Origin: Desulfobaccales bacterium
GTDB taxonomy: Bacteria > Desulfobacterota > Desulfobaccia > Desulfobaccales > 0-14-0-80-60-11
NCBI GenBank assembly: GCA_049580385.1
Contig: JBAUPV010000006.1
Coordinates: forward strand, 64,529-128,528
Reading direction: 5' to 3'
Length of the DNA stretch: 64,000 nucleotides
Shown: positions 1,574 to 13,810 of the stretch, piece after piece
How the letters are laid out: each line of letters begins with the position of its first letter
How positions within the stretch are numbered: the first letter of the stretch is position 1
Program-made: the position numbers and the translations under genes
The notes under the pieces: model-generated
Told to the model about the DNA's origin: nothing
Databases searched by the model: none
Seen by the model: only the letters and a program-made list of their open reading frames with translations

Positions 1574-1795
1574 ATGTCAAAACCGGAGGAGATGTGGCAG
1601 TGCCAGGTTACCAACTGTGGCTATATTTATGACCCGGCCCGCGGGGATAAGAAGGGCAAGATCCCTCCGGGAACCCGTTTTGAGGACCTCCCTGAAGACT
1701 GGAAGTGCCCATGCTGCGGGTCGACCAAGAAAATGTTCCGACCCCTGGCAGGGCCCGGTTCGGTGGCCGAGCAGCCGAGCCATTGCGACACCTGA
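1574..1795 (+). CDS. rub: rubredoxin with a short C-terminal extension
   Basis: [14 protein letters not shown]...[19 protein letters not shown] shows the two CxxC knuckles typical of rubredoxin. AAGGAGG lies upstream. The start could be 1550, 1574 or 1592. Confidence 0.85.
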
Positions 1796-1827
1796 CCCCC
1801 AACCAATCAAATTAGAAGGAGCAAAAC

Positions 1828-2202
1828 ATGACCGAGAAATTGCAGGTTTACAAATGTCAGATCTGTGGAAACATAGTGTCCATGCTGCATTCTGGAGACG
1901 GGGCCCTGGTATGTTGCGGCGAGCCCATGAAACTTATGCTGGAAAACACGGTAGATGCTGCCAAGGAAAAGCATGTGCCGGTTATCGAGAAGACCGCCGG
2001 GGGCTTTAAAATAAAGGTGGGGAGCGTCGCCCATCCCATGGAGCCGAGCCACTACATCGAATGGATCGAGGTCATTGCCGATGGTAAATCCTACCGCCAA
2101 TTCCTGAATCCAGGAGGGGCGCCGGAAGCCACCTTCCCCATCGAGGCTAAGGAAGTGGTGGCGCGGGAATATTGTAATCTGCACGGTCTCTGGAAGGCCT
2201 AA
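1828..2202 (+). CDS. dfx: desulfoferrodoxin (2Fe superoxide reductase)
   Basis: The N-terminus has a desulforedoxin-like CxxC...CC motif ([10 protein letters not shown]...LVCCGEPM). The SOR domain follows (KHVPVIE...[13 protein letters not shown]...CNLHGLW). Confidence 0.9.
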
Positions 2203-2205
2203 CCA

Positions 2206-3126
2206 TTGAAGCAATGGTGGCGCAATCGCGATTTTATCCTGGTCTCGGCGGTGATTAGCGGGCTGGTTGCGGGGCGCGGGGCAAGCTGGACCCAGCCGCT
2301 GGTCCTCCCGGCCCTGGCGGTGGTCATGACCCTCTCGACGATGGGGGTTAGAACAGAGGTGCTGCGGTCCCCCCGGGAGTTGTGGCGTCCGGCGCTGGCC
2401 GGCTTAGTTTTGAATTATCTGATGTTGGGCGGGATTCTCCTGGGGTTGAGCTTCCTGATGATCCGGGAACCCGCCATGAAAGACGGATTCGTCCTGCTGG
2501 TGGCGGTGCCGCCGGCTATCGCGGTTATCCCCTTTACCGACTGCTTGGGAGGCAATACCACTTTTTCTCTCCTGGCCACCGTGGCGTGCTATCTGGCGGC
2601 CCTGATCCTTACTCCGTTAATCGCCATCGGATTTTTGGGCTCAGGCTTCTTTGAAACCCGGTCCCTCGCCATGGTGATCGTGGAGTTGATTGTGGCGCCA
2701 CTGCTCATCTCCCGGGTATTGCTCTCGACCTCTCTGGCCACTCGCCTGGAACCCATCAAGGGGGCCATCACCAATTGGGGCTTTTTTGTCGTCATGTACA
2801 CGATTATCGGGTTGAACCGGGAGTTAATTCTGGGGCAGCCCTTCACCCTGGCGCCGGTGGCCGTCATCGCAGTTTTCAGCACCTTCCTCTTGGGTGCGGC
2901 GATCGACAGATTAGGGAGGTCAATGCGGATTGACCGGGCGACGCTGACCAGCCTGGTGCTTCTGGGAACCCTGAAGAATTATGGCATCGCCGGAGGCCTG
3001 GCCTTAGCTCTCTTCAGTAAAAGGACCGCCGTCCCGGCCACCGTCTCCAGTGTTTTCATGATTGTCTATATTATCTGGCTTAATTTCGAAAAGCGCCGGG
3101 CAACTCATCCTGCCATCAGTTCGTAA
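2206..3126 (+). CDS. bile acid:sodium symporter (BASS/ACR3-like) family membrane transporter
   Basis: About 9-10 hydrophobic helices, length near 300 aa, and a BASS-like pattern LTLSTMGVRTEVLRSPRELWRPALAGLVLNYLMLGG. TTG start. Confidence 0.55.
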   Translation: MKQWWRNRDFILVSAVISGLVAGRGASWTQPLVLPALAVVMTLSTMGVRTEVLRSPRELWRPALAGLVLNYLMLGGILLGLSFLMIREPAMKDGFVLLVAVPPAIAVIPFTDCLGGNTTFSLLATVACYLAALILTPLIAIGFLGSGFFETRSLAMVIVELIVAPLLISRVLLSTSLATRLEPIKGAITNWGFFVVMYTIIGLNRELILGQPFTLAPVAVIAVFSTFLLGAAIDRLGRSMRIDRATLTSLVLLGTLKNYGIAGGLALALFSKRTAVPATVSSVFMIVYIIWLNFEKRRATHPAISS

Positions 3127-3761
3127 AAGGACTCGATGGAGGGAAAGTCCGGGTGGGATTCGGCCTGCTGCCGGGAGCTCGATTTGGCCTTGAAGAGGAG
3201 GTGGCGGATGCCGGAAACCCGGGCCGCGGCCAGGGCCTCGGCATTGTCGTCCACCAACAGGGTGGAGCTGGGGTCAAATAGCAATCGCGCCTGCAGCACT
3301 TTCCAGAAGCGCACCTCCTCCTTGGGGGTTCCCAGGTCGAAGGAGGAGACCACTTCCTCGAAATAGGCGAGCAAGCCGGTCTGGTCCATCTTCAAGGCCA
3401 GGGTCTTGGTGTGGGCATTGGTCACCAGGGCCACCCTCTTCCCCGCTTTTCCCAGGAATTTCAGGAAATCTTCGGTGTCGGGGTGGACCTCGATGAGATG
3501 ACGGATGCCCTCTTTCAGCGCCGGGATATCGAGTTCCAGCTCGCGGGACCAGAAGTCGATGTCGGTCCAGTTGAGGGTGCCCTCCTCCCGCCGGTAGCGG
3601 GCGAAGAGCAGTTGCCGGGCCTCCGGCAAGGGGAGCGCCTGGCGCCGGGCATATTCCTCGGGCACCAGGGTTTCCCAGAAGTAGTCGTCAAAGTGTTTAT
3701 CGAGCAGGGTGCCGTCCATGTCCAGGAGCACCCAGGTAATGGTCTGCCAGGGGAATGCCAT
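3105..3761 (-). CDS. HAD-superfamily hydrolase (YrfG-like nucleotidase type)
   Basis: HAD motif I LLDMDGTLLD, motif II VTNA and a distal DD (LLVDDN). Confidence 0.7.
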   Translation of the reverse strand: MAFPWQTITWVLLDMDGTLLDKHFDDYFWETLVPEEYARRQALPLPEARQLLFARYRREEGTLNWTDIDFWSRELELDIPALKEGIRHLIEVHPDTEDFLKFLGKAGKRVALVTNAHTKTLALKMDQTGLLAYFEEVVSSFDLGTPKEEVRFWKVLQARLLFDPSSTLLVDDNAEALAAARVSGIRHLLFKAKSSSRQQAESHPDFPSIESFYELMAG

Positions 3762-3835
3762 GGGCTGTCCTTCCCAATCTCTTATTTTCCTTTTATTTAT
3801 AGATGATCCCGGGGATTTTTCAAGGGCGGAGGCCC

Positions 3836-3864
3836 TTGACTTCGGGATACGAGATACTTAAAAA
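3836..3864 (+). promoter_or_regulatory. candidate sigma70-type promoter for the hsp20 pair
   Basis: TTGACT (3836-3841), 17 nt, then TAAAAA (3859-3864), about 45 nt upstream of the ATG at 3909. The -10 box is weak. Confidence 0.3.
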
Positions 3865-3908
3865 AAATTGACGAGTATAAATTTTCGATAACGCGGAGGA
3901 GAAGGATT

Positions 3909-4364
3909 ATGCCTATAATTTTTCGGGAACCGGGGCCAACCCAGGATCCCCTCCGAGAGCTGGAGCAACTGCAGCGCCGCATGGACCGGCTCTTTCAGGG
4001 AGGCTTCGGCGTGGAGCGCTCACCCTGGCAGGTGGGAGTCTACCCCTTGGTGAATCTCTCCGAAGACCGGGATCATATCTATGTGCGGGCCGAACTGCCC
4101 GGGGTCAAGGCGGAAGACCTGGAAATCACTATCCAGGACGACAGTCTGATCCTGCGGGGCGAACGCAAGATCGCCTCAGAGGAAAAAGAGGTCAACTACC
4201 AGCGCCGGGAACGGGAATCGGGCTTTTTCCGGCGGGTGCTGGCCCTGCCTTCCCGAGTGCAGCCGGATAAGGTGGAGGCCACCTGCAAGGACGGCATCCT
4301 GACCATCAAGTTGGCCAAACCCGAAGAAGTCAAACCCCGGAAGATCAAGGTAAAGGTTGCCTGA
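3909..4364 (+). CDS. Hsp20/alpha-crystallin small heat-shock protein
   Basis: Alpha-crystallin domain: YPLVNLSEDRDHIYVRAELPGVKAEDLEITIQDDSLILRGER...GILTIKLAK. Confidence 0.9.
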   Translation: MPIIFREPGPTQDPLRELEQLQRRMDRLFQGGFGVERSPWQVGVYPLVNLSEDRDHIYVRAELPGVKAEDLEITIQDDSLILRGERKIASEEKEVNYQRRERESGFFRRVLALPSRVQPDKVEATCKDGILTIKLAKPEEVKPRKIKVKVA

Positions 4365-4373
4365 GGAGGATTC

Positions 4374-4775
4374 ATGGCTGAAAAGGAATTGCGGGCAAAG
4401 GCCAAGGCGGAGGCTCCGGCCAAGGGAGAGCGGGTTCGCCCCGGACGGGTCTTCCTGCCGGCGGTGGATATCTTCGAGACCCCCGAGGCCCTGGTAATGG
4501 TGGCCGACATGCCCGGGGTGGCAGCGGATAAAGTGACCGTGGACTTGCGGGACAATTACCTGGTCATCTCCGGCGAAGTGGGCGCACCGCTCGGCCAGGG
4601 CGAAACCATGGTGGATCAGGAATACCTCACCGGGGACTACATCCGGGAATTCCAACTGGGCAGTCTGATCAATCAGGAAAAGATCGAGGCCACCATGAAA
4701 GACGGGGTGCTGCGTTTGGTGCTGGCCAAGGTGGAGCAGGCTAAACCCCGGAAGATCGCAGTGAAGGCCGCCTGA
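4374..4775 (+). CDS. Hsp20/alpha-crystallin small heat-shock protein (second copy)
   Basis: PAVDIFETPEALVMVADMPGVAADKVTVDLRDNYLVISGE...GVLRLVLAK. It starts 10 nt after the first hsp20. Confidence 0.85.
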   Translation: MAEKELRAKAKAEAPAKGERVRPGRVFLPAVDIFETPEALVMVADMPGVAADKVTVDLRDNYLVISGEVGAPLGQGETMVDQEYLTGDYIREFQLGSLINQEKIEATMKDGVLRLVLAKVEQAKPRKIAVKAA

Positions 4776-4844
4776 TCGAGGCGAAAATAACCCACCGGCT
4801 GCGGGGAAGCGGCAGTCCCGGACCGGCTTGGCAAGGAGAGTACC

Positions 4845-5813
4845 TTGAAGGCCATTCGCGTCCACTCATTTGGCGAGCCCGAGGTCATGCGCCTCGAAGA
4901 GGTGCCTGAACTTAAGGCTGGTCCCGGCCAGGTCCTGGTCAAGGTCCAGGCGGCCGGGGTCAATCCGGTGGATACCTACATCCGGGCCGGGGCCTATGCC
5001 GCCGCCCCGCCCCTGCCTTACACCCCGGGCACGGATGCCGCCGGGGAGGTTGAGGCCGTGGGGCCGGGGGTCAGAACGGTGGCCCCCGGCGACCGGGTCT
5101 ACACCTCCAACACCGTGAGCGGCGCCTACGCTGAAAAAACCCTGTGCCTGGAATCCCAGGTCCACCCTTTGCCGCCCCAGGTCACCTTTGCCCAGGGGGC
5201 CGGGGTGAACGTGCCCTATGCCGCGGCCTACCGGGCCCTGTTCCAGCGCGCCAGGGCGGTGCCCGGGGAGGTGGTGCTGGTCCACGGGGCCAGCGGCGGC
5301 GTGGGGGTGGCGGCCACGCAACTGGCCCGGGCCGCAGGACTGACTGTCATCGGCACTGCGGGCACCGACGCCGGGCGGCGCCTGGCCTCAGAGCAAGGGG
5401 CGCACTATGTACTGGACCATGGCGCCGAGGGCTATCTTCAGGAAGTCATGCGGCTGACGGATAATCGCGGCGCGGATGTCATCCTGGAGATGCTGGCCAA
5501 CGTCAATCTGGGCCGTGACCTGGAGGTCCTCGCTGCTGGGGGACGGGTGGTAGTCATCGGCAGCCGGGGTACGGTGGCCATTGACCCCCGCCAGGCCATG
5601 GTCCGGGAGGCCTGCATCCTGGGGATGGCTATCTTTGCCACCACGGAAAAGGAGACAATGAGCCTGCACGCAGCCCTGGGCGCCGGGCTGGCCAACGGCA
5701 CCCTGCACCCGGTGGTGGGCCGGGAGCTCCCCCTGGCTGAGGCCGCCCGGGCGCATCACGACATCATGGAAACCAGGGCCTACGGTAAGATAGTCTTAAT
5801 TCCCAGAGGCTAA
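4845..5813 (+). CDS. qor: NADPH:quinone oxidoreductase (zeta-crystallin/MDR family)
   Basis: MKAIRVHSFGEPEVMRLEEVP...GVNPVDTYIRAG... and the Rossmann motif VLVHGASGGVG. TTG start. Confidence 0.8.
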   Translation: MKAIRVHSFGEPEVMRLEEVPELKAGPGQVLVKVQAAGVNPVDTYIRAGAYAAAPPLPYTPGTDAAGEVEAVGPGVRTVAPGDRVYTSNTVSGAYAEKTLCLESQVHPLPPQVTFAQGAGVNVPYAAAYRALFQRARAVPGEVVLVHGASGGVGVAATQLARAAGLTVIGTAGTDAGRRLASEQGAHYVLDHGAEGYLQEVMRLTDNRGADVILEMLANVNLGRDLEVLAAGGRVVVIGSRGTVAIDPRQAMVREACILGMAIFATTEKETMSLHAALGAGLANGTLHPVVGRELPLAEAARAHHDIMETRAYGKIVLIPRG

Positions 5814-5869
5814 AGTGCAACCGCCTGAGCTGTCAAAACTCGGGCGCCCACGGCGGGAGGCGCGGCTCC

Positions 5870-5893
5870 GGGAGCTGCGGCTCCCCTTTTTTT
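5870..5893 (+). terminator. intrinsic terminator after qor
   Basis: GGGAGC-TGCG-GCTCCC stem-loop (5870-5885), then C and T7 (5887-5893). Confidence 0.65.
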
Positions 5894-6018
5894 GAGGAAA
5901 AGCCGGGCGCCTGCGGGTTCCCCCGTTTGGCGCCTGGCTATATTCTAAATAGGTGCTTACCATCAAGGCGAATTCGTTAAGAGAATACATTTGGGCTATT
6001 TAATCTAAGGAGATCAAG

Positions 6019-7386
6019 ATGATAGCCTTTGAGAACGAGCAGTATCTTCCCTGCGATTTGGCCACTATCGTCAGTACCAGGGAAAGGAAAATATTGCCTT
6101 CTTATGAAGCCCAGCTCTATCACCAACTAGAAATGGTTGTATATCCCATGCACCAGGGATTTTATATCGGGAGCGGCGGCGGCTCTTTTTATGTAGATTC
6201 ATTAAATTTACTTAGGGCCTTGAAGGGGAAGAGCGCGCGCGAGGTCTGTCAGAATGAAGGGGATTTCCAGGAAATAGAACAATACTATCATCATGGTCTT
6301 ATCGGTTTCGAGGAAAATGAGCACGGCCAGCTCGTGGAAATGCCGGTGGCCAAGAAATATCTCGACTTGTATGAGGACCTGGAAACCACCTGGTTCTGCC
6401 ACATTCCCCACAAGATAGAAATTGATATTACGCAAAAATGCAACTTGACGTGTATCCATTGCTCCCGAAATGCTTCTCCGGCCCAGCCGGAAGACAAAAT
6501 TTCCCTGCAGAATTTGATCGATTTCCTGGATCAGGCCGGAAAACTAGGGGTTCCATCAGTGGCCTTCATGGGAGGGGAACCCACCAGCCATCCCGAATTT
6601 ATCGAGTTGGCCGTGATCGCCAAGTATGCCGGCATAAAAGACCTGTCCACCAGTACCAATGGCTATTTGATTGAAGAAGAGTTAGCCGAGAAAATGGCCG
6701 CTCTGTTCGGCGCCGTCCAGGTGAGCATCCATGGTGCGACTAGCGAGACCCATGAGAGGATCACCCGCAGGCCCGGGTCATTCGTCCGGGCCTGTAATGC
6801 CGTTAAGTTATTACGCAAACATAACGTTCATGGTTTGAATATTTCTTTTACGGTAATGGAGGATAATTTTCTGGAAATGCCGCAGATGGTGCAACTTGCC
6901 AAAGAGCTGAATGCTGATTTTGTTCGCTTCCTGGTGCTCTTTTCCCAGGGTCGGGCTAAAGGGCTGCACCAATGGTCTGAAACGGAAAAGAATGAAATAG
7001 GACAGGCCATTACCTCTCTGCGCCAAAAAAACCTCGGTTATGTGAGGGTTGAGGCGGGGGGCTTCCCTCCCTATTATGAACTCCCCAAGGATGCCGCGTT
7101 TTACGGCTGCCCGGCCGGCAGGACCTTGCTGGCGGTCAATGCGGACGGCCAGATGGGGCCATGCAGTAACCTTGATCTTACCTCAGGCAATATCCAGGAC
7201 CATGGCATCATGGAGGTTTGGCACAGTTCTTCTATGCGGGAACTGCGAAAGAGGCCAACCTGCAACTGCTCTTACACCCCGGTGTGCTCCGGTGGTTGCC
7301 TGGCCAATCCTAATTGGCAGAACATGTTCTTCCCCAAAAATGGAGGGGTAAATCATGGATCAAGAGCACCTAAAGCGTGTGGTTGA
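6019..7386 (+). CDS. radical SAM/SPASM-domain enzyme, candidate peptide maturase
   Basis: CNLTCIHC (aa 141-148, nt 6439-6462) is a CxxxCxxC motif. The C-terminus reads CPAGRTLLAVNADGQMGPC...CNCSYTPVCSGGC, which is SPASM-like (Cx12Gx4C ... CxCx5Cx3C). An N-terminal extension of about 135 aa could be a peptide-recognition domain. SD AAGGAG is present. Sampled lines are about 42-45% GC. Confidence 0.85.
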   Translation: MIAFENEQYLPCDLATIVSTRERKILPSYEAQLYHQLEMVVYPMHQGFYIGSGGGSFYVDSLNLLRALKGKSAREVCQNEGDFQEIEQYYHHGLIGFEENEHGQLVEMPVAKKYLDLYEDLETTWFCHIPHKIEIDITQKCNLTCIHCSRNASPAQPEDKISLQNLIDFLDQAGKLGVPSVAFMGGEPTSHPEFIELAVIAKYAGIKDLSTSTNGYLIEEELAEKMAALFGAVQVSIHGATSETHERITRRPGSFVRACNAVKLLRKHNVHGLNISFTVMEDNFLEMPQMVQLAKELNADFVRFLVLFSQGRAKGLHQWSETEKNEIGQAITSLRQKNLGYVRVEAGGFPPYYELPKDAAFYGCPAGRTLLAVNADGQMGPCSNLDLTSGNIQDHGIMEVWHSSSMRELRKRPTCNCSYTPVCSGGCLANPNWQNMFFPKNGGVNHGSRAPKACG

Positions 7387-7654
7387 GCAAACTATTACAG
7401 AGGAACTCACCAGATTCAAACAGGATTTTCTCCTGGACCTGGGCCGCTTGGTGGGACAGTTGGCGGGCTGTGATTCGCAAGAGGGTTGTTGTCAACAACA
7501 GGGCTGCTGCAAACAGGAAGGGTGCTGTTCCAGGACACACGACCTGCCCAACTTAGTCGGAGAACGAATGGATATACTGGAAGAATTTATCCTCAGCCAC
7601 AAGGAACCCATAGTCAAATTTTTCAAAGCTCGCGGCGTGGAGCTGGGATTCTGA
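7355..7654 (+). CDS. Cys-rich (GCCxxx)n repeat small protein, paralog 1 (candidate rSAM substrate)
   Basis: 99 aa. The core is GCDSQE-GCCQQQ-GCCKQE-GCC (aa 38-58, nt 7466-7528). SD GGAGGGG lies 6 nt upstream. The start overlaps the rSAM gene by 32 nt. The C-terminal tail ILSHKEPIVKFFKARGVELGF is shared with paralogs 2 and 3. Confidence 0.7.
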   Translation: MDQEHLKRVVEQTITEELTRFKQDFLLDLGRLVGQLAGCDSQEGCCQQQGCCKQEGCCSRTHDLPNLVGERMDILEEFILSHKEPIVKFFKARGVELGF

Positions 7655-7667
7655 GGAGGTATCTCTC

Positions 7668-7985
7668 ATGAGTAAAGAAGAGCAATCCATCAAAAGCATT
7701 GTGGAACAGGTAATCAAAGAGGAAGTGCCCAGAATCATCCAGCAGGTAGCCTCCGGGATCAGACATCCTTATTTTTACTTGGGAGCTTTAGATCAGGGCT
7801 GCTGCGCCGACCAGGGATGTTGCAGAAATTACGGCTGTTGCAGAGATCAAGGCTGTTGCGTCAAACAGAAGGGGGTTATGGAATTAATCGCGGACCGCCC
7901 TGCTGACATGGAGGCTTATATCATCTCTCACAAAGAGGAGGTCAGGCAATTTTTCAAAGAAAGAGGCGCTGAGCTTAAGCTTTAA
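7668..7985 (+). CDS. Cys-rich (GCCxxx)n repeat small protein, paralog 2
   Basis: 105 aa. The core is GCCADQ-GCCRNY-GCCRDQ-GCC (aa 44-64, nt 7797-7859). SD GAGGAGG is present. It starts 13 nt after paralog 1. Confidence 0.75.
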   Translation: MSKEEQSIKSIVEQVIKEEVPRIIQQVASGIRHPYFYLGALDQGCCADQGCCRNYGCCRDQGCCVKQKGVMELIADRPADMEAYIISHKEEVRQFFKERGAELKL

Positions 7986-8011
7986 TCGCCGTAAAGGTCA
8001 AAAGAACATCA

Positions 8012-8071
8012 TTAGCCACCCGGAACCTCTGGTCATATTTACAAGGCCACGGCGTGGAGCCTGGCTTCTGA
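8012..8071 (+). pseudogene. decayed 3' fragment of a paralog-1-like Cys-repeat gene
   Basis: 8012-8083 aligns with the last 60-70 nt of paralog 1 plus its junction to paralog 2. Compare tagccacccggaacctctggtcatatttacaaggccacggcgtggagcctggcttctgaggag with cagccacaaggaacccatagtcaaatttttcaaagctcgcggcgtggagctgggattctgaggag. Indels are present and no 5' part remains. Confidence 0.45.
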
Positions 8072-8083
8072 GGAGTCATCTTT

Positions 8084-8395
8084 ATGAGTAAAGAAGAGCA
8101 TTCCATCAAAAGCGTGGTGGAGCAGGTAATAAAGGAAGAAGTGCCCAGATTTATTCAGCAATTAGCCACGGGGGTCAGATATCCCTACCTGGGAGCTTTA
8201 GCCCAGGGCTGCTGCGCCGATAAGGGCTGTTGCAGAGTTCAGGGGTGTTGTGGCGATCAAGGCTGTTGCTCAAAACAAAGGGGCGTTATGGAGTTAATCG
8301 CGGACCACCCTGCCCGTCTGGAAGCTTACATCATGTCCCACAAAGACGAGGTTATGAAATTTTTCAAACAAAGAGGGGTTGAACTTAATCTTTAA
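8084..8395 (+). CDS. Cys-rich (GCCxxx)n repeat small protein, paralog 3
   Basis: 103 aa. The core is GCCADK-GCCRVQ-GCCGDQ-GCC (aa 42-62, nt 8207-8269). It is clearly alignable to paralog 2 along its whole length. SD GAGGAG is present. Confidence 0.75.
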   Translation: MSKEEHSIKSVVEQVIKEEVPRFIQQLATGVRYPYLGALAQGCCADKGCCRVQGCCGDQGCCSKQRGVMELIADHPARLEAYIMSHKDEVMKFFKQRGVELNL

Positions 8396-8584
8396 ATACT
8401 TAAGGTGTCGTCATTCCTTCAAGATAATAAAACGACTTCAAGTATTATCTTTATATATAAAAATCCTAACCCGTCTGATAGATTATCCGACTGACCGACC
8501 ATAGATATAGGGCGCAACTCTCATCAGCCCTGAGACATTTGGCTCGCAGAATCGATTGAGACCGGCATGGCGATATGAGCAGAA

Positions 8585-8977
8585 ATGGTATATTATGCCC
8601 TGGCAAATCTCGTCATAGTAGTCCACCTGGCGTTTGTTATTTTCGCAGCTTTAGGTGGATTCCTGGCGCTCAAGTGGAGGCGCCTGGCCTGGCTTCAGGT
8701 ACCGGCCTTCTTGTGGGGGGCGCTCGTTGAACTCGCCGGTTGGGTGTGTCCGCTCACCCCTCTGGAGAATTGGCTGCGGGAGAGAGGCGGGGGGCTGGTT
8801 TACCGTACCGGCTTTATCGAGCACTATCTCCTCCCCCTCCTCTACCCTTATAACCTCACCCGCGGCATCCAGGTCTTCCTGGGCCTCCTGGTGCTGAGCG
8901 TTAATCTGGGCCTCTATGGGTGGCTCTTATGGCGAAGGCGCCAAAGCCGGGCCCAACTCGGAGGTAAGAATCCTTAA
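8585..8977 (+). CDS. DUF2784-family small membrane protein
   Basis: Four predicted TM helices. The motif GWVCPLTPLENWLR...GFIEHYLLPLLYP matches my memory of DUF2784. Confidence 0.6.
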   Translation: MVYYALANLVIVVHLAFVIFAALGGFLALKWRRLAWLQVPAFLWGALVELAGWVCPLTPLENWLRERGGGLVYRTGFIEHYLLPLLYPYNLTRGIQVFLGLLVLSVNLGLYGWLLWRRRQSRAQLGGKNP

Positions 8978-8995
8978 TGGGAACTTATTAAGACT

Positions 8996-9571
8996 ATGGA
9001 AACTTCCCCTATTCAGGCCAGCAACGATTGGGTGAGAACCCTTCTGCTGCTGGGGGTCTTGACGGTCTGGGTTGCGCTCCCCGGCGTGGCGGCGGCCTAT
9101 TTAAGCGTAGGTGAGCCGGCCCCGTTTTTTAGCGTGGAATCCGGAGATGATGAAAATCTCACGCTGGATATGCTCAGAGGCAAAGTAATAATCCTCTTCT
9201 ATGAAACCCGGGAGGTGGTAAGGAAGAACCGGGAGTTCAAGGATTATCTAAAGAGCCTGTACAATGGCCTGCCGGAGGCTGTTCAGGAAAATGTCTTCAG
9301 ATTGGTGGTGATCAATTGTTTGGATGCGTCCTTCGCGACCAGGCCCATTTGGAGAATGAAGTTAAGGGAAGCCTCCGAGAGACAGGGGATGACCATTTAC
9401 GGAGATTGGACCGGCGACATGCTTAGAGATTACCAGATGCAGGACGACGAAAGTAATTTCCTGGTTATCGACAAGAACGGCATCATAAGATATATGGCCA
9501 CCGGGTTAATAGAAAGAAGCCAGTTTGAAAAGCTTAAGGAGATGCTGCTAAACCTGGCTAATAATAAGTGA
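8996..9571 (+). CDS. exported thioredoxin-fold (redoxin/YtfJ-like) protein lacking a CxxC
   Basis: Signal/anchor LLLLGVLTVWVALPGVAAA. A redoxin-like beta-strand pattern follows (VGEPAPFFSVES...LRGKVIILFYETREVV), with no Cys where CxxC normally sits. The GC content is lower than the flanks. Confidence 0.4.
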   Translation: METSPIQASNDWVRTLLLLGVLTVWVALPGVAAAYLSVGEPAPFFSVESGDDENLTLDMLRGKVIILFYETREVVRKNREFKDYLKSLYNGLPEAVQENVFRLVVINCLDASFATRPIWRMKLREASERQGMTIYGDWTGDMLRDYQMQDDESNFLVIDKNGIIRYMATGLIERSQFEKLKEMLLNLANNK

Positions 9572-9885
9572 TAAACCGCCGGCAATGCTGCCACTTCCGA
9601 GGGTTATTCTTAAGAGTCACCTGCTGGAAAGATGAAAGGAGATTGACCGATAACTTGGGAGAAAATAATGGACAGTATCATTAAATTCATGTCGGATACC
9701 ACCTTGTATTGGCGGCACACAGGGACCGAGTGCGATGTTTGATTTTGGATCAATAATTTTAATGGGGGTTACAATACTAATCTTAATTATTGGTTTTCTT
9801 ATTAATTTATTTACTTATATATAAATAATAGATCCAGAGAATAGAGTCCAGAACCTTTGGGCCACATCATAACGGAGGTGAGCAT

Positions 9886-10464
9886 ATGACCGCACCTGAT
9901 ACCTTCATCCACCCGTTTTTATCGAGCATTCAGGGGTTGCAGAAGAACTGGGGCTGGCTCCTGGCACTGGGGATCATCTCGATTATCCTGGGCATCCTGG
10001 CTCTGGGTTCGTCGGCCTTTTTTACCATGGCCTCCATGATCTTTTTTGGGTGGATCTTGCTGATAATGGGGGTCTTGGAACTGGTCTACTCATTCTGGCA
10101 GCGGCATTGGGGCGGTTTTTTCCTGCATCTTTTAAACGGCATTCTTGCGGGCGTAGCCGGGGTGATATTGATCGGCAACCCGGCGGCCAGCGCCCTCATC
10201 CTGACGCTCATGCTGGCCATGTTCTTCATGGCGGCGGGCTTGTTCCGGATCATCACCTCTCTGGCCATGCGCTTTCCCAGTTGGGGGTGGCGACTGTTCA
10301 ATGGCATCATCACCCTGTTGCTGGGCATATTGCTGTGGGCCCAATGGCCGCTGTCGGGACTGTGGGCGATCGGGATGTTTATCGGGGTCGACCTCATCTT
10401 CAGCGGTTGGGCCAGCGTGATGTTGGCCCTGGCGGCGCGCAGCCTGCCGTCCCGGACTGTCTGA
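9886..10464 (+). CDS. hdeD: HdeD-family (DUF308 repeat) membrane protein
   Basis: Six TM helices with repeated DUF308-like segments (GILALGSSAFFTMASMIFFGWILLIMGVLELV...). Confidence 0.75.
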   Translation: MTAPDTFIHPFLSSIQGLQKNWGWLLALGIISIILGILALGSSAFFTMASMIFFGWILLIMGVLELVYSFWQRHWGGFFLHLLNGILAGVAGVILIGNPAASALILTLMLAMFFMAAGLFRIITSLAMRFPSWGWRLFNGIITLLLGILLWAQWPLSGLWAIGMFIGVDLIFSGWASVMLALAARSLPSRTV

Positions 10465-10538
10465 GGAGCGGATGCGGTATTTATCGAGATAATTTTGACC
10501 GGGGGGGCTAGAAGTTCCGATCCCCGGCGCCAGGCGGA

Positions 10539-11744
10539 CTAGAGATGATCGTAGGTTTGGCCCTGGTGGTTCAGGTAGGCGACGGCCCGCTTGATGCCTG
10601 CCAGGGTGAGGTCTTCCATGGGGAAGATCTTACCGATCTGCCGGACTGTCAGACTCTCATGGGGCCAGTATTCCTTCCTGATGGGGTTGAGCCAGACGCT
10701 TACCGGATATGACGCCCGCAGCTCTTCGAGCCACTCCTGGCCGGCCTTGCGGGCGCTGGTATGGATATCGATGGAGCCGCTGGCGGCCATCAGTTCGGAA
10801 GGCGCCATGTTGGCGTCGCCGATGAGCACCAGCCTGGTGCTCTTGGTTTCACCCAGGAACCTTTCCCAGGGCACCGGCTGCCGCCGCTTAAGATCTTTGT
10901 ATACGGTGCCGTAGATGCAATTATGGAAGTAATAGAAGCGGATATCCTTGAAAAGATCCCCCAGCTTATTGAAGATCATTCTTACCAAAGGGACATAGGC
11001 GTCCATGGAATAGCCGCCGTTGTCGAGTAAGACGATCAACTTCAGGCGGTTGCGCAACTCCCGTTCGAAGACCAGCTCAATTTCGCCCCCGTTTTTGGCG
11101 GTCCGGGCGATGGTGGCGTCGATGTCCAGTTCGGTTTCCGGCCCGGTCGGCCTCAGACAGCGGAGACAGGCGAGGGCTTGCCGCAGGTTTTCGTTGGAGA
11201 GGGTCGATCTTTCACTGTAATCGAGGTAGCGCCGGGAATCGATGACCTTCTGAGCCGAACGATGCAGGCTCCTGCCGTAAACCCGGATGCCGCCGGCATT
11301 GAGGCCGCTATGGCCATAGGGAGACCTGCCCCGGGTGCCCACCCAGGTGCTGCCGCCGTGGTGCTGCGCCTGTTGGGCCAGAACGGTCTCCCAGAACCTG
11401 GCCAGCAGCTCTTCATTGCCGAAGGCGCGGATCTCATCCGGGGAGATGCGGCCGGCGTCGATTTGCTCTTGGAGCCATTCCCGGAAAGGTTTGCCGGACA
11501 TTACCTCCTCCCAGTCCCTCATCTTCTGCCAGAGGCCGGACTTGAGGAAGTAGGAGGAGAACACCTGCTCGAAAATATCGTAGTGCTCGACCCGCTTCAC
11601 AAAGATGAGCCGGGCCAGCAGGAAGAGCTGGTCAAGATTCGAGGCGATGCCGCGCTGGAGCGCCCGGTAGAACTCCAGGATATACTGGACGCTTACCGGG
11701 ACCCCGGCCTCCCGCAATTCATAAACGAAGCCAACCATGGTCAC
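10539..11744 (-). CDS. VWA-domain protein, CoxE-like
   Basis: C-terminal VWA domain (LKLIVLLDNGGYSMDAYV...LVLIGDANMA). It is paired with the upstream MoxR/CoxD-like ATPase. Confidence 0.75.
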   Translation of the reverse strand: MTMVGFVYELREAGVPVSVQYILEFYRALQRGIASNLDQLFLLARLIFVKRVEHYDIFEQVFSSYFLKSGLWQKMRDWEEVMSGKPFREWLQEQIDAGRISPDEIRAFGNEELLARFWETVLAQQAQHHGGSTWVGTRGRSPYGHSGLNAGGIRVYGRSLHRSAQKVIDSRRYLDYSERSTLSNENLRQALACLRCLRPTGPETELDIDATIARTAKNGGEIELVFERELRNRLKLIVLLDNGGYSMDAYVPLVRMIFNKLGDLFKDIRFYYFHNCIYGTVYKDLKRRQPVPWERFLGETKSTRLVLIGDANMAPSELMAASGSIDIHTSARKAGQEWLEELRASYPVSVWLNPIRKEYWPHESLTVRQIGKIFPMEDLTLAGIKRAVAYLNHQGQTYDHL

Positions 11745-11771
11745 TTTAGCCGCAGGCTTTGAGCAAGTTTG

Positions 11772-12599
11772 CTAAAACCGCCCCGGTTTGGTAATCCCTT
11801 TAAATTTCAACAGGTCTTCGGTACGTTTGAGCAGGGTGCCGATGTGGGCCAGGTTCCGGTCGGCGCCGGGGGCCTTCACGCCGGCGGCCTGCAGGGAGCC
11901 TAGCCAGTCCAGGAGTTCCGCCGTGGCCGGCGGCTTCTCGAAACCTTGCTCCCGCAAATGGTAGAAGTTGGTCAGAGAGTCCTCCAGAAATGGCTCCGGC
12001 AGGTTGGGGTGATGAAGATTGACGATATTGATCATCTCCTCGCGGCCCGGAAACGGAATGTAGTGGCAGAAACAACGGCGCAGAAAGGGATCCGACAGCT
12101 CCCGCTTGGCGTTGCTGGTGATAATGATGATGGGCCGCAGGCGCGCGGTCACCTTGTGATTGATCTCCCGGATCACAAAAGACCCGTCCTCCAGGACGTC
12201 CAGGAGGTTGTCCTGGGTGTCCGAATCGGTCTTGTCAATTTCATCCAGCAGGAGGAGGCGCCGGTCTTCGGCCAGGAAGGCCCGGCCGATGGGGCCAAAA
12301 CGGAGATAATCCCAAATGTTGTTGACGTCCCGTCCGGTATCGCCGCTGCCGAACCGGGAGTCGTTCAGCCTAAGCACCGTGTCATATACGTAGCAGAGCT
12401 CTTCGCCCTTGAAGGTGGACTTGCAGCGGGCCTCTTCCATGTTCAGGCCCAGGGCCCGGGCAATTTCAAAGGCCAGTTGGGTCTTACCGGTGCCGGCCTC
12501 CCCGGTAAGCAGCAGGGGCTTTTCCATGGCAATGGCGATATTGACGATTTCCCGCAGTTCGGGCGAGAGATAATAGCGGTCGGTTCCGGCAAACTGCAT
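11772..12599 (-). CDS. MoxR/CoxD-like AAA+ ATPase
   Basis: Walker A GEAGTGKT, Walker B LLLLDEIDK, and a sensor region IIIITSN. Confidence 0.85.
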   Translation of the reverse strand: MQFAGTDRYYLSPELREIVNIAIAMEKPLLLTGEAGTGKTQLAFEIARALGLNMEEARCKSTFKGEELCYVYDTVLRLNDSRFGSGDTGRDVNNIWDYLRFGPIGRAFLAEDRRLLLLDEIDKTDSDTQDNLLDVLEDGSFVIREINHKVTARLRPIIIITSNAKRELSDPFLRRCFCHYIPFPGREEMINIVNLHHPNLPEPFLEDSLTNFYHLREQGFEKPPATAELLDWLGSLQAAGVKAPGADRNLAHIGTLLKRTEDLLKFKGITKPGRF

Positions 12600-12771
12600 C
12601 CTGGCAACTCCCTTCCCAATCGAGTTATGCAGGCGGGCCCGGATAAAGGGCGCCCCTGACCTTAATCATAAATAATACCAAATCCGCCTGCCGGCAGCAA
12701 CCCGTCGCCTGGGGCCGGAAATTCAGGTTAGGCTGCCCAGGCAACTTCCGGCCAAACGGTTTGAGGCTCGA

Positions 12772-13635
12772 TCATCCCCTATCCTGCCTCTGCGGAGTCA
12801 CCCAACTCCCTACCTTGGTGTATCTTAACGCAACCGTCTTGAGGTCTGGGCGGCGCTTTAAGAACTCCTCCTTCATTTCCCGGAGCCAGTCGGCGTGCCG
12901 TCTTGCCTCTTCAGGGCCAAGGAAGAAGCAGTGGTTGCCCGGCTGCGTCTCCATTTGCAGCCGGCCTTCCTTCCAAACATAGGCGCCGGAACTGCTGCAC
13001 AACATGCAGCGCACCTGGCCTGCGGGGAGAAAACGAAAGGTGTCTCCTCCGCAAATCGGGCAAACGGGCGCCAGGGGAGGCACCCTTTCCTTGCCAGCGT
13101 ACAGCGCCGCCGCCAGCCGTCTGGCCGTCTCCTTTCCTTCCTTCCGCAAAAATATCTCCCCTGGCAGGGCGCCATAGACTACGGCAGAGCCTCTCAATTC
13201 TCCCATGGTCAATCTAATGAAACTCTCAACATTCAATTTGGTGCAGCCTTCCATGCCGTCGATTCCGGCGATGGCCACGCCCACCGCCGGTTTTCCCCAA
13301 AGCCGGTCGATGTGGGCGTAAAAACTGAGTCCTCTATCTAAAAACCGCTTCAGGCTGGCATTAGCCCCCAGCAGATACGTGGGGGCCGCGACCACATAGG
13401 CGTCAGATTGGCTCAAGGTCTCCAGCACCAGGGCAAAATCGTCGTCCTGGGGGCATTTCTCCTCGCCGAACAGGCACTGGTAGCACGCCTTGCAGGGGCG
13501 GAGATCCATGTCCGGCAGCCTGATGAGTTGCAGCTCCCAATCTCCCGGGAGTTGCAGGAAGAGTTCCTTGATAAAGAGCTCCGAATTGCCAAACTTTCTA
13601 GGGGATGCCACCAGGCCGAGTAAGGTTTTCGCCAT
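12772..13635 (-). CDS. iron-sulfur flavoprotein (Isf/NADPH-dependent FMN reductase family) with a C-terminal Cys4 extension
   Basis: MAKTLLGLVASPRKFGNSE is a flavodoxin-like N-terminus. The compact cluster motif is CKACYQCLFGEEKC (Cx2Cx2Cx6C). The C-terminus has CPICGG...CMLC. I chose the start at 13635 because GGAGGGGGG lies upstream of it; the ORF track starts at 13683. Confidence 0.65.
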   Translation of the reverse strand: MAKTLLGLVASPRKFGNSELFIKELFLQLPGDWELQLIRLPDMDLRPCKACYQCLFGEEKCPQDDDFALVLETLSQSDAYVVAAPTYLLGANASLKRFLDRGLSFYAHIDRLWGKPAVGVAIAGIDGMEGCTKLNVESFIRLTMGELRGSAVVYGALPGEIFLRKEGKETARRLAAALYAGKERVPPLAPVCPICGGDTFRFLPAGQVRCMLCSSSGAYVWKEGRLQMETQPGNHCFFLGPEEARRHADWLREMKEEFLKRRPDLKTVALRYTKVGSWVTPQRQDRG

Positions 13636-13810
13636 TTTCCCCCCCTCCTTTTTTCCATATTGCCTACGGCACCATTGGTTCATGAAAATATGACTTGTCA
13701 GGGTGCCTTGATCCCAACGACGCTAGCCATGTTACCACCGATAGGTGAAATAATCCTGGAGAACCATGGTATCGGCCCCCATAAATTTATTTACCCGGCC
13801 AGCCCCAAAT

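What the first reader, a model, noticed from the sequence alone, without database searches (positions are those of the whole stretch)
6019..8395. Radical SAM/SPASM enzyme with three tandem (GCCxxx)n small-protein genes: candidate uncharacterised RiPP or modified-protein system
Seen in the sequence:
- A 455-aa ORF carries CNLTCIHC (CxxxCxxC) at aa 141-148.
- It has an N-terminal extension of about 135 aa.
- It has a Cys-rich C-terminus: CPAGRTLLAVNADGQMGPC ... CNCSYTPVCSGGC.
- Its 3' end overlaps by 32 nt the first of three same-strand ORFs (99, 105 and 103 aa).
- Each small ORF has a Shine-Dalgarno sequence (GGAGGGG, GAGGAGG, GAGGAG).
- All three share one architecture: a charged, helix-like N-segment, a central block of 3-4 GCC triplets on a 6-residue period, and a conserved C-segment (..ELIAD.PA..EAYI.SHK.EV..FFK.RG.EL..).
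- A terminator after qor (5870-5893) isolates the unit.
- GC content drops to about 42-45% in sampled lines.

Established knowledge: SPASM-type radical SAM enzymes encoded next to short Cys-rich ORFs are typically peptide maturases that make thioether or C-C crosslinks. Examples are sactipeptides, ranthipeptides/SCIFF and QhpD acting on QhpC.

Inference: the three paralogs are substrates of the rSAM enzyme. I recall catalogued rSAM systems with other Cys periodicities (CXXX-repeat, Cys-every-fifth) but cannot verify them here. I do not recognise the vicinal-CC hexad with a long C-terminal follower. No protease, exporter or immunity gene is adjacent. The product may therefore stay in the cell as a crosslinked or metal-binding small protein rather than a secreted peptide.
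Basis: partly seen in the sequence, partly recalled or inferred. Interest (0 to 1): 0.9.

Follow-up and report, generated by a model that had tools for sequence, protein, structure and literature searches.

The report
Radical SAM enzyme with Cys-Cys-repeat substrates
A self-contained gene cassette encodes a radical SAM peptide-modifying enzyme and three small proteins carrying Gly-Cys-Cys-x-Asp-x repeats; the same enzyme/small-protein pair recurs in sulfate reducers, other anaerobic bacteria and methanogenic archaea, matched no model in the Pfam or NCBIfam copies searched, and is probably an uncharacterised family of enzymatically cross-linked peptides or small proteins.

Summary
There is a 455-aa radical SAM/SPASM ORF at 6019-7386. 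It overlaps by 32 nt the first of three same-strand small ORFs (99, 105 and 103 aa), each with a Shine-Dalgarno sequence and 3-4 GCC hexads.

The substrate inference is strongly supported by comparison, though not by experiment.
- The enzyme belongs to a distinct clade with a conserved N-terminal domain whose predicted fold is RRE-like (three strands, three helices).
- Every close clade member with enough flanking DNA has an adjacent same-strand homolog of the small protein. These include Methanosarcina acetivorans, Methanomassiliicoccales, Ca. Sulfotelmatobacter, Thermodesulfobacteriota and Magnetovibrio.
- 70 unrelated rSAM loci have no such homolog.

The small-protein family is rare: 36 representatives among 1.84 billion proteins. 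It matches nothing in Pfam, NCBIfam or PDB. Its repeat unit is G-C-C-x-[D/E/N/Q]-x. Some homologs are short and end right after the repeats (leader plus core), and two unrelated C-terminal follower domains exist.

Best model: leader-guided, radical-mediated Cys-to-Asp (or Glu/Asn/Gln) thioether cross-linking, like PapB or QhpD. One thiol per repeat would stay free. No conserved protease or exporter is present. The chemistry is inferred, not shown.

Novelty: new variant of a known kind. Interest: about 0.6.

The parts
5870..5893 (+). Intrinsic-terminator-like hairpin plus T-run after the upstream quinone-oxidoreductase gene. It marks the upstream boundary of the cassette.
   Evidence: 6-bp stem with 5 GC pairs, then CTTTTTTT; sequence.
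6007..6012 (+). Shine-Dalgarno sequence (AAGGAG) of the rSAM gene.
   Evidence: Read directly; it ends 6 nt before the ATG at 6019.
6019..7386 (+). Radical SAM/SPASM enzyme, 455 aa; the predicted peptide maturase.
   Evidence: Pfam PF04055 and PF13186. None of the 25 best NCBIfam matches reaches its curated cut-off. About 65 full-length homologs at 32-97% identity. AF2 model pLDDT 89.9. Foldseek best matches are SkfB, SuiB, CteB, TigE and PqqE.
6019..6393 (+). N-terminal domain (aa 1-125). It has an invariant E7/P11/C12 'EQxLPC' motif followed by an RRE-like three-strand, three-helix fold (strands aa 38-59, helices aa 63-91).
   Evidence: Alignments A1 and A5; DSSP of the AF2 model. No Pfam PqqD hit by sequence, so the RRE assignment is structural only.
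6439..6462 (+). CxxxCxxC motif (C141, C145, C148) that binds the radical SAM [4Fe-4S] cluster.
   Evidence: Invariant in 23 family members.
7108..7299 (+). SPASM auxiliary-cluster region: C364-x12-G-x4-C382 ... C415-x-C417-x5-C423-x3-C427. It has six conserved Cys. The usual seventh, downstream Cys is absent.
7355..7654 (+). Precursor paralog 1 (99 aa). It overlaps the rSAM stop by 32 nt, and its Shine-Dalgarno is GGAGGGG. The leader carries EELTRF. The core hexads GCDSQE-GCCQQQ-GCCKQE-GCCSRT are aa 38-61 (nt 7466-7537). The C-terminal follower is a helical domain.
   Evidence: The ortholog in L115 has the same 32-nt overlap.
7668..7985 (+). Precursor paralog 2 (105 aa). The leader carries EEVPRI. 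The core is four GCCxxx hexads, aa 44-67 (nt 7797-7868), followed by the follower domain.
   Evidence: pN/pS.
7986..8083 (+). Spacer holding a decayed relic of the 3' end of a paralog-1-type gene plus its downstream Shine-Dalgarno. It is a footprint of duplication of a [type-1][type-2] pair.
   Evidence: Alignment A4. L115 carries only the type-1 plus type-2 pair.
8084..8395 (+). Precursor paralog 3 (103 aa, 77% identical to paralog 2). The core is four GCCxxx hexads, aa 42-65 (nt 8207-8278), followed by the follower domain.
   Evidence: In the AF2 model the leader is a helix (aa 3-30), the core is disordered, and the C-terminus has three short helices (aa 68-96, pLDDT 70-83).
8395..8446 (+). 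Weak hairpin followed by a U-rich tract; a possible end of the transcription unit.
   Evidence: -8.3 kcal/mol, z-score -1.8. It was not picked up by the consensus scan, so confidence is low.

Best explanation
This is a compact, horizontally mobile enzyme/substrate cassette of the RiPP type.

Proposed mechanism, with each step marked shown or inferred:
- The three small proteins are precursors. Each has an N-terminal leader with a shared 'acidic-hydrophobic-x-Arg-hydrophobic' motif (EEVPRFIQQ, EELTRFKQD). (The motif is shown; its role is inferred.)
- The leader is bound by the RRE-like N-terminal domain of the radical SAM/SPASM enzyme. (Inferred.)
- This delivers the disordered core, 3-4 repeats of G-C-C-x-[D/E/N/Q]-x, to the active site. 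(Inferred.)
- The 5'-deoxyadenosyl radical abstracts a hydrogen from a side-chain or backbone carbon. The most likely site is the conserved Asp/Glu/Asn/Gln at hexad position 5, three residues from the invariant Cys on either side. A Cys thiol then closes a thioether ring. (Inferred.)
- The auxiliary SPASM clusters take up the electron. (Inferred from established knowledge of SPASM enzymes.)
- Each hexad has two Cys but only one acceptor. The product would therefore be a chain of small thioether rings that still shows about one free thiol per repeat. (Inferred.)
- That product stays fused to a small helical C-terminal domain, so it could be a rigid thiol-rich small protein that binds metal or is redox-active. 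(Speculative.)
- No dedicated protease or exporter belongs to the cassette, so the product probably stays in the cell. (Absence is shown; the fate is inferred.)

What is shown: the gene architecture, the conserved enzyme/small-protein linkage across Bacteria and Archaea, the domain predictions and the repeat consensus. What is inferred: the enzyme-substrate relation, which rests on strong comparative evidence. What is hypothesis: the thioether chemistry, the acceptor residue and the biological role.
For: Linkage between the two genes:
- An HMM of the small proteins hits an adjacent same-strand ORF in every close-clade rSAM locus. These are Methanosarcina (L001-L006, L011, L012, L052, L053), Ca. 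Sulfotelmatobacter (L013), Methanomassiliicoccales (L014), Thermodesulfobacteriota (L015), Magnetovibrio (L016), and L048, L049, L054, L115 and L116.
- It hits none of 70 generic-rSAM control loci.

Precursor-like behaviour:
- Copy number varies from 1 to 3 per enzyme. A three-gene tandem array also occurs in L048 with a different follower.
- Repeat number varies from 2 to 5 hexads.
- Short homologs of 59-90 aa end right after the repeats, which is a classic leader-plus-core layout.
- Precursor subtype tracks the rSAM clade.
- In the window and in L115, L015 and L049 the first precursor overlaps or abuts the end of the rSAM gene, which suggests translational coupling.

Enzyme features:
- The AF2 model has pLDDT 89.9 and a three-strand, three-helix N-terminal domain.
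- The best full-length structural matches are the RRE-containing RiPP maturases SkfB (E 3e-22), SuiB, CteB and TigE. The best PDB sequence match is SkfB.

Core consensus over 198 hexads: G 100%, C 100%, C 77%, x, D/E/N/Q 92% (D 60%), K/Q.

Precedent (established knowledge): PapB links Cys sulfur to Asp C-beta in six repeated CX3D motifs, accepts Glu, and accepts spacings CX0-6D (PMC9413430).

The genes are real: pN/pS is 0.16-0.40.
Against: - There is no experimental evidence of any modification.
- The RRE call is structural only. No PqqD/RRE sequence model matches.
- The rSAM's highest NCBIfam scores are to the tetrapyrrole enzymes AhbD and NirJ2, not to thioether synthases. All are far below cut-off (133 bits against 500), so sequence does not discriminate the chemistry.
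- Paralog 1 and its orthologs carry Gln, not Asp, at hexad position 5.
- A distant sub-clade has cores without an acidic residue (…SAVCCPSFSLS). A Cys-Asp link therefore cannot be universal across the wider family.
- The feature shared most widely is the vicinal CC pair itself, which no known thioether system requires.
- A Cys-rich, Gly/Asp/Lys-rich disordered segment also resembles metallothioneins.
Confidence: 0.6

Rival explanations
1. The enzyme-substrate pairing is the same, but the chemistry is not Cys-Asp thioether formation. The rSAM might modify the vicinal Cys pair itself. Options include Cys-Cys-derived heterocycle or ene-thiol formation, C-alpha sactionine links to the invariant Gly, epimerisation, Cys-to-formylglycine-type oxidation, or formation of a new protein-derived cofactor.
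For: The feature shared across all precursor subtypes, including distant ones (CVGDYSCCGxVP, SAVCCPSFSLS), is the CC pair rather than Asp. Gly before CC is 100% conserved. The SPASM domain lacks the usual seventh Cys, and the family has an invariant N-terminal Cys12, which suggests an atypical auxiliary-cluster site. Structural neighbours include non-thioether enzymes: SuiB (C-C), PqqE, TigE and anSME.
Against: Position 5 of the hexad is D/E/N/Q in 92% of 198 hexads. That conservation is hard to explain unless the residue takes part. Most characterised rSAM/SPASM enzymes paired with Cys-rich precursors make thioethers (established knowledge: sactipeptides, ranthipeptides, QhpD).
Confidence: 0.25
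2. The small proteins are not substrates. They are metallothionein-like or Fe-S/metal-binding partners of the rSAM enzyme (cluster donor, electron carrier, metal chaperone or scaffold), and the enzyme acts on another molecule.
For: The core is Cys-, Gly- and charge-rich and disordered, like metallothioneins. The long forms have a folded C-terminal domain. No protease or exporter is conserved. Several flanks hold redox or stress genes: rubredoxin, desulfoferrodoxin, Hsp20 x2 and an AhpC-like gene in the window; Fur plus rubrerythrin in L049; MsrB and DegP in L048.
Against: The enzyme has an RRE-like peptide-binding domain. Its closest structural relatives are peptide maturases. A conserved leader-like motif lies N-terminal to the repeats. 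Short leader-plus-core forms exist with no folded domain. Having several divergent paralogs per enzyme is typical of precursors. The flanking genes are not conserved between lineages.
Confidence: 0.1
3. It is a conventional secreted RiPP (bacteriocin or signal). The leader and follower are cleaved by housekeeping proteases, and export uses transporters encoded elsewhere.
For: The short leader-plus-core homologs look like ordinary RiPP precursors. One locus (L048) has a DegP/HtrA-type protease four genes downstream. Some cassettes sit on mobile elements (transposases in L044, T4SS genes in L050).
Against: No protease, ABC transporter or immunity gene recurs in the 20 or more loci examined. The follower is conserved as a foldable domain under purifying selection, which argues that it is part of the final product. 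This rival concerns the fate of the product and is compatible with the main mechanism.
Confidence: 0.1
4. The adjacency is fortuitous, or the small ORFs are not genes.
For: None beyond the small size and low-complexity core.
Against: The pairing is conserved across phyla and domains. The ORFs are under purifying selection, have Shine-Dalgarno sequences and an overlap with the rSAM stop, and their start and length are conserved in orthologs.
Confidence: 0.02

Closest known systems
PapB/PapA (freyrasin) and other ranthipeptide systems (CteB/SCIFF, Tte1186)
   Same: Both have an RRE-rSAM-SPASM enzyme next to a Cys-rich precursor. In both, the core is built from a short repeated motif that pairs Cys with an acidic residue a few positions away (CX3D x6 in PapA; C-x-x-D-x-x-C on a 6-residue period here). 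CteB is among the best structural matches.
   Different: The NCBIfam PapB model scores 65.7 bits against a cut-off of 340. The precursors share no detectable homology with PapA or SCIFF models. The units here are vicinal CC pairs preceded by an invariant Gly. Many members carry a roughly 40-aa folded C-terminal follower. The family occurs in archaea. The chemistry is untested.
QhpD/QhpC (quinohemoprotein amine dehydrogenase gamma-subunit maturation)
   Same: A SPASM rSAM enzyme makes several Cys-to-Asp/Glu thioethers in a roughly 100-aa protein that remains a functional protein rather than a released peptide.
   Different: No qhpA, qhpB, qhpE or qhpF genes are nearby. There is no sequence similarity between the small proteins and any solved or modelled family. 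Here the cassette has several paralogous substrates and stands alone.
Sactipeptide synthases (SkfB, AlbA, ThnB-type)
   Same: SkfB is the best sequence and structure match in the PDB. The domain order is the same: N-terminal peptide-binding domain, rSAM core, auxiliary-cluster domain.
   Different: Identity is only about 20%. The NCBIfam SkfB model scores 66.8 bits against 300, and StsB scores 96 against 625. Sactipeptide precursors are short, have N-terminal Cys donors and C-terminal acceptors forming hairpins, and are not hexad repeats.
NxxcB/NxxcA (beta-thioether Asn-x-x-Cys)
   Same: The spacing is the same: the acceptor lies three residues upstream of the Cys (D-x-G-C here, N-x-x-C there). 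This comparison is from my own recollection of the NxxC system.
   Different: That system has a single motif per short streptococcal peptide. Homology was not tested here, because no NxxcB model appeared among the NCBIfam hits.
Metallothioneins and copper-binding RiPPs (bufferins, methanobactins)
   Same: Both are Cys-dense, Gly- and charge-rich small polypeptides. A metal-binding role for the free thiols is possible.
   Different: There is no homology. Metallothioneins need no maturase. Bufferins and methanobactins use MNIO/MbnBC enzymes, not rSAM/SPASM.

Membership tests
Radical SAM superfamily, SPASM subgroup | A CxxxCxxC motif in a Radical_SAM domain, plus a C-terminal SPASM Cys motif for auxiliary [4Fe-4S] clusters. 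| tested here: met
   PF04055 E 7e-24 and PF13186 E 3e-10. C141, C145 and C148 are invariant, as are C364, C382, C415, C417 and C427; C423 is conserved in at least 90%. The seventh SPASM Cys is absent.
RRE-dependent RiPP maturases | An N-terminal RiPP recognition element: a PqqD-like winged helix with three strands followed by three helices. | tested here: inconclusive
   The AF2 model shows strands at aa 38-44, 48-52 and 55-59, then helices at 63-67, 73-76 and 80-91, at pLDDT above 90. Full-length Foldseek alignments go to the RRE-bearing SuiB, CteB, SkfB and TigE. No Pfam PqqD hit appears in 23 members, and no RRE hit appears in a PDB profile search. RRE-Finder was not available.
RiPP precursor/maturase pair (general) | A small precursor gene genomically coupled to the maturase across lineages, with a leader-plus-core organisation. 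| tested here: met
   The two genes are adjacent in all close-clade loci and in none of 70 control loci. Short forms end after the repeats. A conserved leader motif is present.
RiPP precursor/maturase pair (general) | Demonstrated post-translational modification of the precursor. | not testable with these tools
   This needs co-expression and mass spectrometry.
Ranthipeptides, PapB type (NF047865) | The maturase reaches the curated PapB model cut-off, and the precursor has repeated CX3D motifs. | tested here: not met
   65.7 bits against a cut-off of 340. The motif here is GCCxDx (C-x2-D / D-x2-C), not CX3D. The system may work like PapB but is not a member.
SCIFF/CteB ranthipeptides (TIGR03973/TIGR03974) | A six-Cys-in-45 precursor and its dedicated maturase model. 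| tested here: not met
   Neither model is among the hits for the enzyme or for any of 13 small proteins at E<=1.
Heme b synthase AhbD / NirJ (best NCBIfam scores) | Equivalog cut-off (500 bits), and no peptide-binding N-terminal domain. | tested here: not met
   133 and 112 bits against 500. The match covers only the rSAM core, aa 135-355. The family has an extra N-terminal domain and a precursor partner.
Mycofactocin MftC / PQQ PqqE | Equivalog cut-offs, and partner genes mftA/mftB or pqqA/pqqD. | tested here: not met
   104 bits against 265, and 86 against 381. No such partners are in the window neighbourhood.
Prokaryotic viperins (defence) | The pVip model matches over its full length, and there is no SPASM or RRE domain. 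| tested here: not met
   Only core similarity, 63 bits over aa 133-301. The domain architecture is different.
Metallothionein | Homology to a metallothionein family, and independence from a modifying enzyme. | tested here: not met
   No Pfam or NCBIfam hit. The small proteins are strictly coupled to the rSAM gene. Metal binding itself was not tested.

The most novel reading that the evidence does not exclude
The cassette makes a previously unknown kind of protein-derived structure from vicinal cysteines. One possibility is a ladder of Cys-Asp thioether rings that holds a row of free thiols in place as a metal- or cluster-binding site. Another is a new Cys-Cys-derived cofactor. The structure would be carried on a small intracellular protein and shared by horizontal transfer between methanogenic archaea and anaerobic bacteria. 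On this reading it is a new RiPP or protein-cofactor class with a physiological role (metal or redox) rather than an antibiotic one.
Probability: 0.2. Interest if true: 0.85.

Novelty: new variant of a known kind. Interest (0 to 1): 0.6.

Why it matters
Radical SAM/SPASM maturases are a main source of new peptide chemistry. Each new precursor motif characterised so far has tended to reveal a new cross-link.

Several features make this family worth attention.
- Its core (G-C-C-x-Asp-x hexads) matched no model in the Pfam, NCBIfam or PADLOC copies searched.
- It occurs in both Bacteria and Archaea.
- It lacks export and protease genes.
- It often keeps a folded C-terminal domain. The product may therefore be a modified small protein with a cellular job, such as metal or redox handling in strict anaerobes, rather than a secreted antibiotic.

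The pair is present in Methanosarcina acetivorans (AAM04721/AAM04722). From my own knowledge that organism is genetically tractable, so both the chemistry and the physiology could be tested there directly.

If the product is only another thioether peptide, it would be a useful but incremental addition to the ranthipeptide and sactipeptide catalogue.

Tried and rejected
- **Family assignment of the rSAM by NCBIfam.** 79 families match at E<=1, and none of the 25 best reaches its cut-off. The top names (AhbD, NirJ2, ScmE, MftC) reflect the shared core only, so they were rejected as functional calls.
- **Family assignment of the small proteins.** Pfam, NCBIfam (13 proteins including short forms), PADLOC, a PDB profile search and Foldseek on the AF2 model all returned nothing significant. 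The weak SiaP and spider-toxin hits (E of 1.8 or more) were dismissed.
- **Sequence-level proof of an RRE.** Pfam PqqD was not hit in any of 23 members. A profile of the N-terminal domain against the PDB gave only marginal hits to two uncharacterised Bacillus proteins (E 4e-4), which were not interpretable.
- **Rfam scan of 5600-8800.** It found no riboswitch or leader RNA, only a chance lncRNA hit.
- **Defence-system reading.** Only generic viperin-core similarity appeared, so this was rejected.
- **Literature.** Six full-text searches, including the M. acetivorans accessions, found no description of this family. The library holds open-access papers only, so a publication elsewhere cannot be excluded.
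- **Matching contig lengths between the small-protein and rSAM hit lists.** This was considered as co-occurrence evidence but was not relied on. Only loci actually fetched were counted.
- **Conserved neighbours.** Stress and redox genes flank the cassette in three lineages, but none recurs. The link to stress was therefore kept as a weak lead only.

Full report
**1. Observation.**

The window holds a 455-aa ORF at 6019-7386 (+) with CNLTCIHC at aa 141-148 and a Cys-rich C-terminus. Three same-strand small ORFs follow at 7355-7654 (99 aa), 7668-7985 (105 aa) and 8084-8395 (103 aa). Each has a Shine-Dalgarno sequence. The first overlaps the large ORF by 32 nt.

- Pfam assigns Radical_SAM and SPASM to the large ORF.
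- The small ORFs contain 3-4 GCC units on a strict 6-residue period.
- A terminator-like hairpin with a T-run follows the upstream quinone-oxidoreductase gene at 5870-5885.
- GC is 46-50% across 6000-8600, against 56-71% just upstream.
- Near-identical contigs are labelled Desulfobaccales bacterium (Thermodesulfobacteriota).
- Against those strain-level relatives, pN/pS is 0.23-0.25 for the enzyme and 0.16-0.40 for the small ORFs.
- Paralogs 2 and 3 have diverged to pS 0.45 with pN/pS 0.26. All four are therefore real coding genes.

**2. The enzyme.**

None of the 25 best NCBIfam matches reaches its curated cut-off. The best is AhbD at 133 bits against 500, followed by NirJ2, ScmE, MftC, StsB, WgkB, PqqE, SkfB and PapB, all far below cut-off.

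A search of 5.8 billion proteins found about 65 full-length homologs at 32-97% identity. All share the 130-aa N-terminal extension. In a 23-member alignment the following are invariant or nearly invariant:
- E7, P11 and C12 (an 'EQxLPC' motif);
- the CxxxCxxC triad;
- six SPASM cysteines: C364-x12-G-x4-C382, then C415-x-C417-x5-C423-x3-C427.

The usual seventh, downstream SPASM Cys is absent.

The AlphaFold2 model is confident (pLDDT 89.9, pTM 0.87). It places three strands (aa 38-59) followed by three helices (aa 63-91) in the N-terminal domain, which is the topology of a RiPP recognition element.

Foldseek aligns the whole model best with RiPP maturases that carry such a domain: SkfB (E 3e-22), SuiB, CteB and TigE. 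PqqE and anSME follow. A PDB profile search also ranks SkfB first.

Sequence models of PqqD/RRE do not match. The RRE assignment is therefore structural and provisional.

**3. The small proteins.**

They match nothing in Pfam, NCBIfam, PADLOC or the PDB. A single-sequence search found only strain-level copies.

The decisive lead came from the enzyme's ortholog in Methanosarcina acetivorans (55% identity). Its upstream gene encodes a 114-aa protein with DQGCCQDKGCCREGKC and the same C-terminal segment...ELIKEYIVENKKSVVKYFKEKGVNLEQ.

A profile of the family then recovered 32 clusters in the 5.8-billion set. It recovered only 36 representatives in an exhaustive scan of 1.84 billion representative proteins. 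All that carry a name are named 'hypothetical'.

Across 62 proteins and 198 hexads the repeat unit is as follows:
- position 1: G, 100%;
- position 2: C, 100%;
- position 3: C, 77%;
- position 4: variable;
- position 5: D/E/N/Q, 92% (D alone 60%);
- position 6: K or Q most often.

Proteins carry 2-5 units each. N-terminal to the repeats is a shared motif: EEVPRFIQQ, EELTRFKQD, EEFIRLRKE or KVFIRLSRV in bacterial types, and STKVKARKQ in the archaeal type.

The AF2 model of paralog 3 has low overall confidence (pLDDT 59.7). It shows an N-terminal helix, a disordered core, and three short C-terminal helices at pLDDT 70-83. It has no structural neighbours.

**4. Linkage.**

Scans of one genome per species and of metagenome contigs returned 94 loci.

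- Every locus whose rSAM covers the N-terminal domain at 39% identity or more, and that has enough flank, carries an adjacent same-strand small-protein homolog.
- These are Methanosarcina spp., Methanomassiliicoccales, Ca. Sulfotelmatobacter, Thermodesulfobacteriota, Magnetovibrio and several unbinned contigs.
- The 70 loci with unrelated rSAM genes (405 kb) gave no hit better than E 1.8.
- In the other direction, short family members found by profile (P0158, P0162) lie directly beside clade rSAM genes.

Precursor subtype follows enzyme clade:
- **77% identity (L115):** the same type-1 plus type-2 pair with the same 32-nt overlap, but in a different genomic neighbourhood.
- **50-56% identity:** the archaeal type, encoded upstream of the enzyme.
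- **48% identity (L015, L049):** the bacterial type with the same follower as in the window.
- **39-41% identity (L016, L048):** a second, unrelated follower (...RLGIPVEDLVARIRALDPKLLGA). In L048 this type forms an array of three tandem paralogs.
- **32-36% identity:** several layouts.
  - Short leader-plus-core peptides (L044, three per enzyme, flanked by transposases).
  - Single-unit cores (...CVGDYSCCGxVP) accompanied by a B12-binding rSAM.
  - ...SAVCCPSFSLS cores.

No protease, transporter or immunity gene recurs. Flanks differ in every lineage and often look mobile: transposases, T4SS genes, toxin-antitoxin-like genes, and low GC in the window. The functional unit is therefore the enzyme plus one to three precursors, and it moves horizontally, including between domains.

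**5. Mechanism.**

An RRE-like domain, a conserved leader motif, a disordered repetitive core, variable repeat and gene copy number, and strict co-occurrence are the hallmarks of a RiPP-type maturase/precursor pair. I hold that part with about 0.85 confidence.

The chemistry is inferred.
- The invariant Cys (position 2) and the conserved acidic or amide residue (position 5) alternate every three residues. This recalls the Cys-Asp/Glu thioethers made by PapB in six repeated CX3D motifs. PapB also accepts Glu and spacings CX0-6D (PMC9413430).
- From my own knowledge it also recalls QhpD acting on the protein QhpC, and the N-x-x-C beta-thioether of NxxcB.
- I therefore favour thioether rings between Cys and the position-5 residue, at about 0.45.
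- Each hexad has two Cys and one acceptor. The second Cys would stay free, giving a rigid ladder that displays thiols. That suggests metal or redox chemistry, which is speculation.

Three things count against a simple PapB-like picture:
- Gln replaces Asp in paralog 1.
- Distant cores lack an acidic residue.
- The most widely conserved feature is the CC pair with a preceding Gly, which no known thioether system requires.

A different, possibly new, modification of vicinal cysteines is therefore a serious rival (0.25). Weaker rivals are a non-substrate metal or Fe-S partner role (0.1) and a conventional secreted peptide processed by unlinked genes (0.1). The secreted-peptide rival concerns only the fate of the product.

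**6. Comparison and novelty.**

By architecture this belongs to the known kind 'rSAM/SPASM peptide maturase with Cys-rich precursor'. It is not a member of any defined family I could test: PapB, SCIFF/CteB, SkfB, StsB, MftC, PqqE, AhbD/NirJ and pVip all fail their model cut-offs or lack their partner genes.

Features not seen together in the systems I compared:
- the GCCx(D)x hexad core;
- the optional and interchangeable folded followers;
- the absence of processing and export genes;
- the atypical cluster ligand set (six SPASM Cys plus an invariant N-terminal Cys12);
- the distribution across Bacteria and Archaea.

Six full-text searches, including the M. acetivorans accessions, found no description. 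The library is open-access only, so prior publication cannot be ruled out. I rate it a new variant of a known kind, with interest 0.6. It is not paradigm-changing unless the chemistry or role proves new, but it is well defined, rare and directly testable in M. acetivorans.

Noticed in passing
window 7986-8083: The spacer between paralogs 2 and 3 is a decayed copy of the last roughly 70 nt of a paralog-1-type gene plus its downstream Shine-Dalgarno (it aligns with 7585-7667). The array therefore arose by duplicating a [type-1][type-2] pair and then losing most of the second type-1 copy. The 77% ortholog locus L115 has only the single pair.
   Followed up: yes
window 8084-8395 vs L007 8001-8312: Between the window and its strain-level relatives, paralog 3 has about three times the synonymous divergence (pS 0.157) of the rSAM gene and paralogs 1 and 2 (0.04-0.05). 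This suggests recombination or gene conversion confined to the third copy.
   Followed up: partly
window 6019-6054 (aa 1-12) and 7108-7299: The whole rSAM clade has a nearly invariant N-terminal 'EQxLPC' motif (E7, P11, C12) and lacks the usual seventh, downstream SPASM cysteine. Cys12 might supply the missing auxiliary-cluster ligand. Model coordinates could not be inspected to test this.
   Followed up: no
L042 4748-7852, L051 4779-7951, L055-L057, L078: A distant sub-clade (32-36% identity) pairs the rSAM with a single-unit precursor ending ...C-x-G-D-Y-(S/G)-C-C-G-x-V-P. In the two loci with gene calls (L042, L051) a B12-binding radical SAM enzyme lies immediately downstream. This implies an extra, probably methylating, tailoring step.
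   Followed up: partly
L058, L060, L065, L066 (e.g. L065 114-368): Another sub-clade has precursors ending ...SAVCCPSFSL(S/A). These have the same VRF(S/A)N leader motif but no acidic residue near the CC pair. L017, L059 and L061 have a further, unclear precursor type (…EK(A/L)GQHTAA…).
   Followed up: partly
L048 5001-9490: A second lineage independently has three tandem paralogs after the rSAM gene, with a different C-terminal follower (...LDPKLLGA). A small membrane protein and a DegP/HtrA-type protease with two PDZ domains follow.
   Followed up: partly
L116 592-1938 (-): Divergently transcribed from the clade rSAM (56% identity) is a second, unrelated rSAM/SPASM enzyme with a recognisable Pfam PqqD (RRE) domain. 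It may be a second RiPP system or a co-maturase.
   Followed up: no
L008 7586-7902 and L009 5937-7303: In two strain-level contigs paralog 2 (L008) or the rSAM gene (L009) is split by a frameshift. This is either a long-read assembly error or pseudogenisation, and the two were not distinguished.
   Followed up: no
window 1-5800 and 8585-13700: The cassette sits among redox and stress genes. Upstream are rubredoxin, desulfoferrodoxin, two Hsp20 genes and a quinone oxidoreductase. Downstream are DUF2784, an AhpC/TSA-like protein, DUF308 and an FMN reductase. A second low-GC dip (44-46%) lies at 9200-10200. None of these neighbours is conserved in other lineages.
   Followed up: partly
L012 5622-5918: At the contig end downstream of the Methanosarcina sp. 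Z-7115 rSAM gene there is a perfect tandem repeat. It encodes ...EEVCEEA(A/T)P(A/E)... on the minus strand and ...FFTNFF(C/F)WSC... on the plus strand. Its nature is unknown.
   Followed up: no
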